Assembly (NCBI GenBank): GCA_019057865.1
Contig: JAHLWP010000031.1
Location: forward strand, 1-54,186
Length of the DNA stretch: 54,186 nt
Direction of reading: 5' to 3'
From: Promethearchaeota archaeon
GTDB lineage: Archaea; Asgardarchaeota; Lokiarchaeia; Sigyniarchaeales; SOKP01
Shown: piece after piece, positions 35,405-37,321 of the stretch
Position numbering within the stretch: position 1 is the first letter of the stretch
Layout of the letters: every line of letters begins with the position of its first letter
Made by a program: the position numbers and the translations under genes
The notes under the pieces: model-generated
What the model saw: the letters and a program-made list of their open reading frames with translations, nothing else
Database searches by the model: none
Told to the model about the DNA's origin: nothing

Positions 35405-35632
35405 ATGCCTATTAGATTTAATTATTGTCCTCATTGTAATGAGAAAATTATTTTTAGAATAGATTTAGGAGATATTGATACAAGTCAATATCCTGCTCCA
35501 GTTTATATTATTCATGAAGATAAATCTTGCGGAAAATTATCAACCTTTTATGTTGATAGTCTACTAAGAATTTCATATAAAGAACTTGACAAAAAACCTG
35601 GTGGAATTAAAACTATCAGGACAATAAAGTAA
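35405..35632 (+). CDS. Small putative Zn-binding protein
   Basis: CPHC...H....C and YVD pattern; 75 aa. Confidence 0.7.
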   Translation: MPIRFNYCPHCNEKIIFRIDLGDIDTSQYPAPVYIIHEDKSCGKLSTFYVDSLLRISYKELDKKPGGIKTIRTIK

Positions 35633-35753
35633 AAAATTAGTATCTATTAGGTTAATTTAAATCAATTTTTATTTAATCCTAACATGTATTTGAAACATCT
35701 CATATTATATAAAATTCGTAAAAAATATTTATAATTGAGAATGATAAATAATA

Positions 35754-37321
35754 ATGGTTTATAATTTAGAAAATGTAAAAGGCATTGGTAATGAAACAGC
35801 AGAGAGATTAAGATCAGCAGGTATTAATTCAATTGAAAAGTTAGCTGAATTATCCATTAAAGAATTATTAGGATTAAAAATAAAAGGTATTGGAAAAGCA
35901 ACTGCATCTAAATATATTGAAAATGCTAAAAACTTACTTGAAACAGAAAGCGTAAAAGTAAAAGAAGAACTCCCAAAACTTGAAAAACAAGCTCCACCAT
36001 CAAAAAAAGTGTCAGCTAAAAAAGGACCTAATCTTAAAGAGCTAATTGTACAACAAGCAGAATGTAATATAGGGCTCGTAGGTCATGTAGATCATGGAAT
36101 GATTACGTCATTTAGCCAATTCCCATAAAAACTACACTAGTTAAGGCACTTACAGGAGATTGGACAGATAGACATTCAGAGGAGCAAGAGCGAGGTATAT
36201 CTATAAAATTAGGGTATTCGAATGCGACAATTCTTTACTGCCCTACTTGTGACCTATATTTTACAAAATATATGGTTGAACAAGAAAGAGTAAAGGGCCA
36301 ACCACGATTCACATGCTTAAAATGTAAAAATGAATTAGAGTTTAAAAGAAATATTTCTTTTGTTGATGCACCGGGGCATGAAATATTAATGGCGACTATG
36401 TTAAGTGGAGCTTCATTGATGAATGGAGCATGTTTATTAATTGCAGCAGATGAAGATTGCCCACAACCCCAAACAAGGGAACATTTAGCGGCCTTAAATA
36501 TCGCCGGGATACAGAATATTATTATCATTCAAAATAAAATTGACGCCGTTTCAAAAGAACAAGCTTTAGAAAATTATATACAAATCAAGGAATTTATTAA
36601 GGGAACTATTGCTGATAATGCTCCAATCATACCCATCTCAGCTGTCTTTAACTCTAATTTAGGTCTTATTGTAAGAGCATTTGAAGAAATAATTCCTTCT
36701 CCAGAAACCAATGAAAATGAATCCTTTCAGTTTTTAATTGCAAGATCATTTGATATTAATCGCCCTGGAAAAGAAATTAAAGATTTAAAAGGAGGAGTAA
36801 TAGGCGGTTCTGTATTAAAAGGGAAAGTTAATATTGGGGATCGAATAGAGATACGCCCTGGTATTCGCATAAAAAATAATTATATGCCTATACAATCAAC
36901 TATCGTAAGTATAAGTCAAGGGAACAATAATCTTGAGAATGCTAAACCTGGCGGTCTAATAGGATTAGGAACAAAATTGGATCCATCCTTAACTAAAGGA
37001 GATCATCTAATAGGGCATTTAATTGGGAAACCAGGAGCATTACCCGAAGTTCTTACTGAAGTGGAATTGAAAGTTAATCTACTTGAACGTGTAATCGGTA
37101 CTGAGATGCAAATTAAAGTTATTGAACTTAAACATAACGAAAAATTGTTATTAGTTGTTGGAACTGAAAAAACAGCTGGAACTGTTACTAAAATTTTAAA
37201 AAACTCGTTTATCCTTAAATTAAATCCTCCTATTTGTATCCCAGAAAATTTTATATTTGCTATATCCAGAATAATAAATAGACGCTATAGATTAATTGGA
37301 TATGGTGAAATATTTAATTAA
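35754..37321 (+). CDS. eif2g: Translation initiation factor aIF-2 gamma with N-terminal HhH domain; join(35754..36099,36129..37321), 512 aa after removal of a 29-nt insert
   Basis: The joined frame reads [41 protein letters not shown], then the Zn knuckle CPTC/CLKC, DAPGHE, QPQTREH, NKID, ARSFDINRPG and RLIGYG. Confidence 0.93.
36100..36128 (+). other. Predicted 29-nt BHB-type mRNA intron in eif2g
   Basis: Central helix AUGG/CCAU, bulges AAU and AAA. Cuts after the second bulge nucleotide restore GGA AAA ACT. Confidence 0.8.

What the first reader, a model, noticed from the sequence alone, without database searches (positions are those of the whole stretch)
36086..36136. Candidate tRNA-type (BHB) intron splitting the P-loop of aIF-2 gamma mRNA
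Seen: GGT CAT GTA GAT CAT GGA [29 extra nt] AAA ACT ACA CTA. The invariant GHVDHGKT motif is broken, the frame shifts and an in-frame TAA appears at 36126-36128, while both flanks are otherwise intact. Protein restoration allows only three junction placements. The BHB fold independently predicts cuts AA|U and AA|A, i.e. intron 36100-36128, which is one of those three. The fold is central helix AUGG 36094-36097 / CCAU 36123-36126, bulges AAU and AAA, intron stem starting GA/UC, and a relaxed exon stem UGUAG/CUACA. The spliced CDS is 1539 nt (512 aa). Established: aIF-2 gamma is essential, and the crenarchaeal cbf5 intron is the classic archaeal BHB mRNA intron. Inference: EndA/RtcB splices a core translation-factor mRNA in an Asgard archaeon.
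Basis: partly seen in the sequence, partly recalled or inferred. Interest (0 to 1): 0.93.

Follow-up and report, generated by a model that had tools for sequence, protein, structure and literature searches.

The report
tRNA-type mini-intron in Asgard aIF2-gamma
The only gene for the essential translation factor aIF2-gamma in this Asgard archaeon is split inside its GTP-binding loop by a 29-base insert shaped like a tRNA intron. The same insert sits at the same spot in 29 of 125 related genomes, so the message is almost certainly cut and rejoined by the tRNA-splicing enzymes, which in print is known for only one archaeal coding gene.

Summary
Confirmed. The single aIF2-gamma gene of this Asgard (Promethearchaeota) genome is split inside the P-loop Lys codon by a 29-nt insert (36100-36128) with stops in all three frames. 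Independent metagenome contigs carry the insert.

Of 125 genomes of the same family, 29 (9 of 13 genera) have a 29-32-nt insert at exactly this site; 96 have none. Only the cut register predicted by the bulge-helix-bulge (BHB) rule restores GHVDHGKT in all 29. The BHB helices covary strongly: 86% of cells are paired against 32-45% in slid controls, and an exon His-wobble change is compensated in the intron. Exons stay open and under purifying selection.

The genome encodes two EndA paralogues and RtcB. I verified similar mini-introns in uS3, RNase HII, Elf1 and a Zn-ADH gene.

This is almost certainly an EndA/RtcB-spliced mRNA intron. Splicing was not observed, and the window's copy has the weakest fold of the 29.

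In the papers I could search, coding-region BHB introns are reported only for crenarchaeal cbf5. This scan had already reported the same aIF2-gamma intron, and other Asgard mRNA mini-introns, on other DNA. New here are the family-wide counts, the register test, the exon synonymous-site constraints, and evidence that the intron travels with exon 1 by recombination.

The parts
35754..36099 (+). Exon 1 of aIF2-gamma: ATG, about 100-aa helix-hairpin-helix N-terminal extension, then ...[11 protein letters not shown] plus the first base (A) of the Lys codon
   Evidence: Pfam HHH_5 E = 1.3e-11. Same start and frame in G088. dN/dS 0.40 against G088.
36100..36128 (+). 29-nt BHB-type intron, phase 1, inside the P-loop Lys codon
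   Evidence: Absent from 96 relatives and present at the same site in 28 others. It is the only register that restores GHVDHGKT in all 29. It has stops in all three frames.
36129..37321 (+). Exon 2 of aIF2-gamma: last two bases of the Lys codon, TTLV... through the stop codon at 37319-37321
   Evidence: NF003077 526 bits, profile positions 22-410 of 412. GTP_EFTU, GTP_EFTU_D2 and eIF2_C domains. dN/dS 0.15 against G088.
36094..36097 (+). Central BHB helix H, 5' strand (AUGG, in exon 1: His wobble plus GG of Gly)
   Evidence: Pairs with 36123-36126. This helix is 94% paired across the 29 genomes. A U-A to C-G double change occurs in G046, and G-C to G-U in 11 genomes.
36123..36126 (+). Central BHB helix H, 3' strand (CCAU, in the intron)
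36098..36100 (+). 5' bulge AA|U; predicted cut after 36099
   Evidence: the bulge is (A/U)A|N in all 29. Gly codons are only GGA or GGU when the intron is present.
36127..36129 (+). 3' bulge AA|A; predicted cut after 36128
   Evidence: the first two bulge bases vary (AA, AU, AG, AC, UA) while the third is always A, the second base of the Lys codon. This fixes the cut site.
36101..36122 (+). Inner intron hairpin h' (degenerate in this copy). Pairs kept: 36101-36122, 36102-36121, 36104-36119, 36107-36117, 36109-36115. Pairs broken: 36103/36120, 36105/36118, 36108/36116
   Evidence: Homologous to the 8-bp hairpin of relatives, where all 8 pairs show changes on both sides. BHB-constrained energy is -4.2 kcal/mol, the weakest of the 29. 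A competing hairpin forms at 36099-36113.
36087..36093 (+). Outer exon-exon helix h, 5' strand: GUAG 36087-36090 pairs with CUAC 36132-36135; U36092 pairs with A36131; C36093 faces A36130 (mismatch in this copy, C-G in 22 of 29)
   Evidence: helix 1 is 85% paired. Val wobble / Thr wobble pair types are AU 6, GC 6, CG 2, UA 1.
36130..36135 (+). Outer exon-exon helix h, 3' strand (in exon 2)

Best explanation
The 29 bases at 36100-36128 are an archaeal bulge-helix-bulge (BHB) intron in the pre-mRNA of the single-copy, essential aIF2-gamma gene. In the transcript, exon bases AUGG (36094-36097) pair with intron bases CCAU (36123-36126). This 4-bp helix is flanked by two 3-nt bulges on opposite strands (AA|U and AA|A), an inner intron hairpin and an outer exon-exon helix. 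The tRNA-splicing endonuclease EndA (two paralogues in this genome, one close to crenarchaeal catalytic subunits) cuts after the second base of each bulge. RtcB then joins the exons to give ...CAU GGA A|AA ACU..., which restores GHVDHGKT and a 512-aa protein. The intron is the local copy of an orthologous intron present in 29 of 125 genomes of the family. It is one of several such mini-introns in protein genes of this genome. Shown here: the sequence anatomy, the orthologous copies, the covariation, the unique register, intact and selected exons, and presence of the enzymes. Inferred: that cutting and ligation actually occur, and that EndA and RtcB are the agents.
For: (1) The gene is unique. 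Only one NF003077 match lies above cut-off in a genome that is 99.7% complete.
(2) The insert is real DNA. An independent study's contig spans it without any difference, and a JGI contig carries the sister allele.
(3) 29 of 125 family genomes, in 9 of 13 genera, have a 29, 30 or 32-nt insert at exactly this site; 96 have none.
(4) After removal by the BHB register, all 29 genes have exon 1 (88-140 codons) in frame with exon 2. Unspliced, all 29 hit a stop within 2-13 codons.
(5) Registers -1 and 0 give a stop, Glu or Gln in place of the P-loop Lys in 5 genomes. The BHB register gives Lys in all 29.
(6) Covariation: 86.2% of cells are paired against 32-45% for slid partners, 10 of 18 pairs change on both sides, and 0 of 500 shuffles reach the observed score. 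The central helix changes from AUGG/CCAU to ACGG/CCGU in G046.
(7) Exon synonymous sites follow intron state. His is CAU in 28 of 29 with the intron against 37 of 90 without. Lys is AAG in 22 of 29 against 21 of 90. Gly is GGA or GGU only when the intron is present.
(8) Purifying selection acts on both exons between the two closest intron-bearing genomes: dN/dS is 0.40 for exon 1 and 0.15 for exon 2.
(9) The machinery is encoded. Two EndA proteins each have N-terminal and catalytic domains, and one matches Aeropyrum pernix EndA chain 3p1z_B at 3e-35. RtcB scores 561 bits. Asgard EndA is reported as the (alpha-beta)2 type with the L1 loop that gives broad BHB specificity (PMC5829648).
(10) The same genome has BHB mini-introns in uS3 (textbook fold), RNase HII, Elf1 and a Zn-ADH gene.
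Against: No RNA evidence for this species was obtained. The window's own fold is not better than shuffled sequence (z = 0.23). Its BHB-constrained energy (-4.2 kcal/mol) is the weakest of the 29 and 2 kcal/mol above a competing fold that sequesters the 5' bulge. Three of the eight inner-helix pairs are broken, and the outer helix is displaced by a C-A mismatch, so this copy is a relaxed BHB. The related genomes are not independent samples, so the counts overstate statistical weight. The second EndA paralogue was not shown to be a structural beta subunit.
Confidence: 0.88

Rival explanations
1. The BHB intron is real, but this degenerate copy is spliced inefficiently or conditionally. Splicing would then throttle or regulate aIF2-gamma output, for example by coupling it to EndA/RtcB capacity, rather than being a neutral passenger.
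For: This is the weakest BHB of the 29 copies, and it has a competing hairpin over the 5' bulge. The sister genome G088 shares the three broken inner-helix pairs, so the degenerate state has persisted. The intron sits in translation genes (aIF2-gamma, uS3) that depend on the tRNA-maturation machinery.
Against: No expression data are available. In G088 the BHB is still the minimum-energy fold. Closest relatives lose the intron patchily with no other visible change, which suggests it is dispensable. Broad-specificity EndA is reported to cleave relaxed motifs (PMC5829648).
Confidence: 0.1
2. Translational bypassing or recoding: the ribosome hops over the 29 bases, as in phage T4 gene 60 or mitochondrial 'byp' elements, and no RNA splicing occurs.
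For: The size is similar to known bypassed gaps. The codon before the gap is GGA, as in gene 60 (my recollection of that system). A hairpin lies within the gap.
Against: There is no matching Gly landing codon before the Lys codon in this copy or in any of the 29; the preceding bases are AUA, UAU and the like. The covarying elements are exactly those of a BHB: a 4-bp helix between an exon and the 3' end of the insert, plus two 3-nt bulges. A hop has no need for them. The variable first two bases of the 3' bulge fix a cut between the first and second base of the Lys codon, which is not a codon boundary.
Confidence: 0.02
3. Decaying pseudogene, or a sequencing or assembly artefact.
For: The frame is broken with an in-frame stop, and automatic annotation would call this a frameshifted gene.
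Against: The gene is single-copy and essential. The identical sequence occurs in an independent run at depth 89. The same insert is kept in 29 species with both exons open and under purifying selection. No other lesion is present.
Confidence: 0.02
4. Removal by some other route: DNA-level excision in part of the population, or an unknown RNA-processing activity unrelated to EndA.
For: Close relatives lack the insert precisely, so precise DNA loss does happen over evolutionary time.
Against: The independent DNA run shows one contig with the insert and no joint across it (table 5). No intronless protein carrying this exon-1 haplotype appears among 5.8 billion protein clusters. No spliced-form DNA with these flanks was found in JGI metagenome contigs. 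There are no Rfam ribozyme or group I/II matches, and the insert is far too small to be self-splicing.
Confidence: 0.02

Closest known systems
cbf5 (pseudouridine synthase) pre-mRNA BHB intron of Crenarchaeota (Watanabe 2002; Yokobori 2009, PMC2738675)
   Same: A short BHB intron inside a protein-coding sequence, removed by the tRNA-splicing pathway. The distribution among relatives is patchy and explained by an ancestral intron with lineage-specific precise losses. The interrupted gene is essential and RNA-related.
   Different: The gene differs (aIF2-gamma, at the P-loop Lys codon) and so does the phylum (Asgard/Promethearchaeota). Splicing of cbf5 was shown experimentally, whereas here it is inferred. 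This genome carries several such introns in unrelated genes (uS3, RNase HII, Elf1, Zn-ADH), while cbf5 was described as the sole case (PMC7714728).
BHB intron in the 5' UTR of Haloferax volcanii HVO_1309 mRNA (Schwarz 2020, PMC7714728)
   Same: An mRNA substrate of the archaeal splicing endonuclease outside tRNA and rRNA.
   Different: That intron lies in an untranslated leader and does not interrupt a reading frame. Here the coding sequence cannot be translated without removal.
Archaeal tRNA BHB introns, including the intron-rich tRNA genes of Asgard archaea (PMC11291895; bioRxiv 10.64898/2026.10.13.758758; Marck and Grosjean 2003)
   Same: The same hBHBh' geometry, the same cut position after the second bulge base, a similar size, and the same enzymes. 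ARAGORN also calls many intron-bearing tRNA genes in this genome.
   Different: The host molecule is an mRNA, the exon halves of the motif are made of codons, and synonymous sites are constrained by the fold.
Unconventional cytoplasmic splicing of HAC1/XBP1 mRNA by Ire1 and a tRNA ligase/RtcB (from my own knowledge)
   Same: Non-spliceosomal mRNA splicing by an endonuclease plus the tRNA ligase. The intron is tiny (26 nt in XBP1) and its removal changes the reading frame.
   Different: Ire1 is unrelated to EndA and recognises paired stem-loops, not a BHB. That event is a stress switch, whereas nothing here shows regulation.

Membership tests
Archaeal BHB (EndA-type) intron | Two 3-nt bulges on opposite strands separated by a 4-bp helix | tested here: met
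   AUGG 36094-36097 pairs with CCAU 36123-36126; the bulges are 36098-36100 and 36127-36129. This helix is 94% paired across the 29 orthologues.
Archaeal BHB (EndA-type) intron | Flanking helices h (exon-exon) and h' (within the intron) of the canonical hBHBh' form | tested here: inconclusive
   Both helices are present and covarying in relatives. In the window, h' keeps 5 of 8 pairs and only 2 of them are contiguous with the bulge. Helix h is offset by a C-A mismatch. This is a relaxed BHB, the weakest of the 29.
Archaeal BHB (EndA-type) intron | Cutting after the second base of each bulge yields a functional junction | tested here: met
   This is the only register that restores GHVDHGKT in all 29 genomes; the alternatives give a stop, Glu or Gln in 5.
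Archaeal BHB (EndA-type) intron | Compensatory base changes that maintain the helices | tested here: met
   10 of 18 pairs change on both sides. 86% of cells are paired against 32-45% in slid controls, and 0 of 500 shuffles reach the observed score.
Archaeal BHB (EndA-type) intron | Splicing endonuclease and RNA ligase encoded by the host | tested here: met
   Two EndA paralogues and RtcB at 561 bits.
Archaeal BHB (EndA-type) intron | Exact excision seen in RNA, or cleavage by EndA in vitro | not testable with these tools
This needs RT-PCR, RNA-seq or an enzyme assay.
Translational bypass element (T4 gene 60 / mitochondrial byp type) | Matching take-off and landing codons flanking the skipped gap | tested here: not met
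   The take-off codon would be GGA or GGU, but no GGN precedes the Lys codon in any of the 29 copies.
Self-splicing group I / group II intron | Ribozyme core recognisable by a covariance model; size of hundreds of bases | tested here: not met
   No Rfam family matches anywhere in the window, and the insert is only 29 nt.
aIF2-gamma (NF003077 / TIGR03680 equivalog) | Full-length match above the curated cut-off with an intact GTP-binding P-loop | tested here: met
   Exon 2 alone scores 526 bits (cut-off 315) over profile positions 22-410. Exon 1 supplies ...GHVDHG, and the P-loop is complete only after removal of 36100-36128.

The most novel reading that the evidence does not exclude
The aIF2-gamma intron is one member of a sizeable, evolutionarily mobile population of BHB mini-introns in the protein-coding genes of this Asgard family, including core translation genes (aIF2-gamma, uS3). 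These introns would be gained and lost by homologous recombination that carries flanking exon sequence along. Cells would have to splice many mRNAs with the tRNA machinery before translating them. That implies some separation in time or space between transcription and translation in a close prokaryotic relative of eukaryotes, and a built-in dependence of translation initiation on tRNA-splicing capacity.
Probability: 0.4. Interest if true: 0.9.

Novelty: new member of a known kind. Interest (0 to 1): 0.78.

Why it matters
mRNA splicing by the tRNA endonuclease has been treated as a curiosity of one crenarchaeal gene. Here an essential translation factor cannot be made without it, in the archaeal group closest to eukaryotes. 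The intron is old enough to be shared by nine genera, and the same genome holds several more.

The finding has a practical side. Gene callers and completeness estimates mis-annotate such genes as broken.

It also bears on biology. It gives a concrete, testable system for asking how a prokaryote with coupled transcription and translation avoids translating unspliced messages. It shows how RNA structure constrains synonymous codons. It also offers a way to study how BHB introns spread, because the intron state here follows the exon-1 haplotype across a recombination breakpoint.

Tried and rejected
1. RNA evidence. The RNA runs X17-X19 held only small parts of exon 2. One RNA-library contig (X18, record 3) reads ...CATGGAA directly followed by an exon-2 sequence with no insert. 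Its flanks differ from every sampled genome (9-13 of 30 upstream bases), so it may come from an intronless relative. It is not counted as evidence.
2. Structure-only genome scans for ORF-joining BHB motifs gave as many hits with decoy pairing as with real pairing. I abandoned this as a census method.
3. The insert sequence has no other copy in the genome (blastn-short), so I found no evidence of intron transposition from a tRNA gene.
4. A search of JGI metagenome contigs for the spliced or unspliced junction of this allele found only one intron-bearing contig.
5. A protein search with exon 1 against longer proteins found no full-length protein above 59% identity. No intronless or cDNA-derived version of this haplotype is on record, which is weak evidence either way.
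6. None was found here.
7. Other families of the order (16 genomes) show long open frames with no sign of the insert. Eight non-Asgard archaeal records read GHVDHGKT uninterrupted.
8. Literature searches found no paper on Asgard mRNA BHB introns. The library lacks most subscription journals.

Full report
THE OBSERVATION

The + strand reads GGT CAT GTA GAT CAT GGA at 36081-36098. It then has 29 bases that no intact homologue has, and continues AAA ACT ACA CTA.
- The upstream ORF (35754-36128) ends ...[11 protein letters not shown], adds nine unrelated residues and stops at TAA 36126-36128.
- The other two frames are closed inside the insert by TGA 36100-36102 and TAG 36113-36115.
- The downstream frame is open from 36128 to the stop at 37319-37321.
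- That frame matches the aIF2-gamma equivalog NF003077 at 526 bits over profile positions 22-410 of 412. It carries GTP_EFTU, domain 2 and eIF2_C.
- Exon 1 also carries a helix-hairpin-helix domain.
- Three removal registers restore Gly-Lys, and the spliced CDS is 1539 nt (512 aa).

IS IT REAL DNA, AND IS THIS THE ONLY COPY?

A whole-genome search of the assembly (99.7% complete, 87 contigs) finds one aIF2-gamma gene. The other matches are weak hits to other translational GTPases. A contig from an unrelated 2015 marine-sediment study spans 35700-36184 at depth 89 with no difference and no gap. A JGI metagenome contig carries the sister allele with its intron. This excludes an assembly artefact and a redundant decaying copy.

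COMPARATIVE SURVEY

I searched all 135 genomes of the family and read the site in 125 sequences. These comprise 119 from the family and 6 from a sister family of the same order. 96 read GHVDHGKT without interruption. 29 carry an insert of 29 (23 genomes), 30 (5) or 32 (1) bases at exactly the same place. The 29 lie in 9 of the 13 genera.

The sister genome G088 (94% protein identity) has a clear homologue of the window's intron, with three base differences. The closest relative by exon 2, G012, has none. The other three families of the order (16 genomes) show long uninterrupted frames. Eight non-Asgard archaeal records are also uninterrupted. Near-identical public records are named 'Promethearchaeota archaeon', so the organism is Asgard.

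THE CUT REGISTER

All 29 sequences have the same layout:
- exon ...A(U/C)GG, then a bulge (A/U)A|N;
- a 22-25-nt hairpin;
- a four-base partner of the exon bases (CCAU, CUAU, ACAU, CCGU or CCAC);
- a second bulge NN|A;
- exon 2.

In the window the junction is ambiguous because of runs of A. In five relatives the first two bases of the 3' bulge are AU, AG or AC. In those, the two non-BHB registers turn the invariant P-loop lysine into a stop, Glu or Gln. Cutting after the second base of each bulge, the rule for the archaeal splicing endonuclease, gives GHVDHGKT(T/S)L in all 29. After removal in that register every gene has 88-140 open codons of exon 1 in frame with exon 2. Unspliced, every one stops within 2-13 codons.

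COVARIATION

On a MAFFT alignment of the 29 sites I scored the full hBHBh' structure (the structure without four of the outer pairs was scored).
- 86.2% of cells form standard pairs, against 32-45% when partners are slid by 1-3 columns.
- 10 of 18 pairs change on both sides (59 cells).
- No shuffle out of 500 reaches the observed covariation score.
- All eight inner-hairpin pairs show double changes.
- In the central helix, the exon His codon is CAC only in G046, and there the intron partner is G instead of A (AUGG/CCAU becomes ACGG/CCGU).

Exon synonymous sites depend on intron state:

| Codon | With intron | Without intron |
|---|---|---|
| His CAU | 28 of 29 | 37 of 90 |
| Lys AAG (its G pairs with the C before the central helix) | 22 of 29 | 21 of 90 |
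| Gly third base | only A or U | any base |

When the Val wobble is not A, the Thr wobble is its complement in 9 of 10 intron-bearing genes, against 4 of 16 intronless ones. Relatedness inflates such counts, but the intron-bearing genomes are scattered over the gene tree.

SELECTION AND ENZYMES

Between G000 and G088, dN/dS is 0.40 for exon 1 and 0.15 for exon 2, at dS of about 0.12-0.16. Both halves are therefore maintained as coding sequence with the intron in place.

The genome encodes two EndA proteins with both endonuclease domains. One is closest to Aeropyrum pernix EndA chain 3p1z_B (3e-35) and the other to the Methanocaldococcus enzyme. It also encodes RtcB. Kaneta et al. (PMC5829648) report that Asgard archaea have the (alpha-beta)2 EndA with the L1 loop, which is associated with cleavage of relaxed BHB motifs.

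THE WINDOW'S OWN COPY IS WEAK

Its fold is no better than shuffled sequence. With the BHB enforced, its energy is -4.2 kcal/mol, the lowest stability of the 29. That is 2 kcal/mol worse than an alternative fold in which a hairpin at 36099-36113 takes up the 5' bulge. Compared with relatives, three of the eight inner pairs are broken, and the Lys codon AAA leaves a C-A mismatch next to the 3' bulge. G088 shares these defects, yet in G088 the BHB is still the best fold. This copy is therefore a relaxed BHB. Whether it is spliced less efficiently is open.

NOT AN ISOLATED CASE IN THIS GENOME

Following earlier notes of this scan, I checked three genes myself:
- RNase HII is split DEAGR|30 nt|GP, with a TAG inside the insert.
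- Elf1 is split CPE|31 nt|CGE.
- uS3 is split after seven codons by a 31-nt insert with a textbook BHB: CACU/AGUG, bulges UC|A and AA|A, inner stem UUAGG/CCUAA.

Independently, I aligned 230 kb of G012 to this genome. This turned up a 29-nt insert absent from G012 in a zinc alcohol dehydrogenase gene (C60:11315-11343, minus strand). It lies inside the GICGSDVH motif and has a GUGG/CCAU helix, AA|U bulges and a 9-bp hairpin.

Other follow-ups of this scan report the same aIF2-gamma intron, and other mRNA mini-introns, on other Asgard DNA. Some of them report RNA-derived contigs lacking the intron. I did not test those claims.

EVOLUTION

On the exon-2 tree, intron presence needs at least 17 changes, 9 of them forced by well-supported branches.

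The gene is a mosaic. G000 and intronless G012 are 92-100% identical per 60 nt in exon 2 (dS 0.105). They are only 46-70% identical in exon 1 beyond the conserved 60 nt next to the site (dS 0.886). G000 and G088 are close in both halves.

G094 groups with the other 30-nt-intron genomes in exon 1 but with intronless genomes in exon 2. The intron state thus follows the exon-1 haplotype across a breakpoint near the intron. This points to gain or loss by homologous recombination between diverged alleles. No nuclease gene lies next to the gene here.

RIVAL EXPLANATIONS

- Translational bypass fails its defining test: no Gly landing codon in any copy. It also does not explain the BHB covariation.
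- Pseudogene and artefact are excluded above.
- There is no ribozyme signature.
- DNA-level excision finds no support.

WHAT IS KNOWN

In the papers I could search, BHB introns in archaeal mRNAs are reported only for crenarchaeal cbf5, in the coding region, and for a Haloferax 5' UTR (PMC2738675, PMC7714728). Asgard tRNA genes are known to be intron-rich (PMC11291895; bioRxiv 10.64898/2026.10.13.758758). I found nothing on Asgard mRNA introns, but the library lacks most subscription journals.

VERDICT

This is a new member of a known kind, with strong comparative support and no direct RNA proof.

Noticed in passing
window 35754-36060: aIF2-gamma carries an N-terminal helix-hairpin-helix extension of about 100 aa (PF14520). 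The same architecture (about 510-550 aa) is found throughout the order and in many 'Promethearchaeota' proteins in the public collection. Its function in a translation initiation factor is unknown.
   Followed up: partly
window 35754-37321 compared with L008 (G012), L043/L142 (G088), L052 (G094): Mosaic gene. Exon 2 of G000 is nearest to intronless G012 (dS 0.105), but exon 1 is very different (dS 0.886), while G088 is close in both halves. G094 switches partners between the exon-1 and exon-2 trees. There is a recombination breakpoint at or near the intron site, and the intron state follows exon 1.
   Followed up: partly
G000:C60:11315-11343 (minus strand; L181:1516-1544): A 29-nt BHB insert inside the GICGSDVH motif of a zinc-dependent alcohol dehydrogenase gene, absent from the close relative G012. 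It has a GUGG/CCAU helix, AA|U bulges and a 9-bp hairpin. Found by an unbiased 230-kb genome comparison.
   Followed up: yes
G000:C41 about 193009 (minus strand; L182), G000:C75:81539-82168 (minus strand; L183), G000:C75 about 101437 (plus strand; L184): uS3 (31 nt, after codon 7, textbook BHB), RNase HII (30 nt in DEAGR|GP, TAG inside) and Elf1 (31 nt in CPE|CGE) are each interrupted by a mini-intron.
   Followed up: yes
G000:C65 about 42384 (minus strand): A 31-nt indel relative to G012, with BHB-like ends, lies in an ORF of only 87 codons. Whether it is an intron in a small protein gene or in an RNA gene was not resolved.
   Followed up: no
run X18 record 3 (aligned to window 36054-36099): A contig from a wetland RNA library reads ...CATGGAA directly joined to an aIF2-gamma exon-2 sequence most like that of the 30-nt-intron group (1-3 mismatches in 30). 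Its upstream part matches no sampled genome, so it is either a spliced message or an intronless relative.
   Followed up: partly
G014 (C104:41348 and C211:3846): One genome of the genus has two full-length, uninterrupted aIF2-gamma copies on different contigs. This may be a duplication or a mixed bin.
   Followed up: no
whole genome G000: ARAGORN calls many tRNA genes with short introns at non-canonical positions. It also calls two implausibly long 'introns' (876 and 1582 nt) that are probably false joins or may hold inserted genes.
   Followed up: no
window 35405-35632: A 75-aa ORF with CxxC...C spacing lies directly upstream of aIF2-gamma on the same strand. It has no Pfam match.
   Followed up: no
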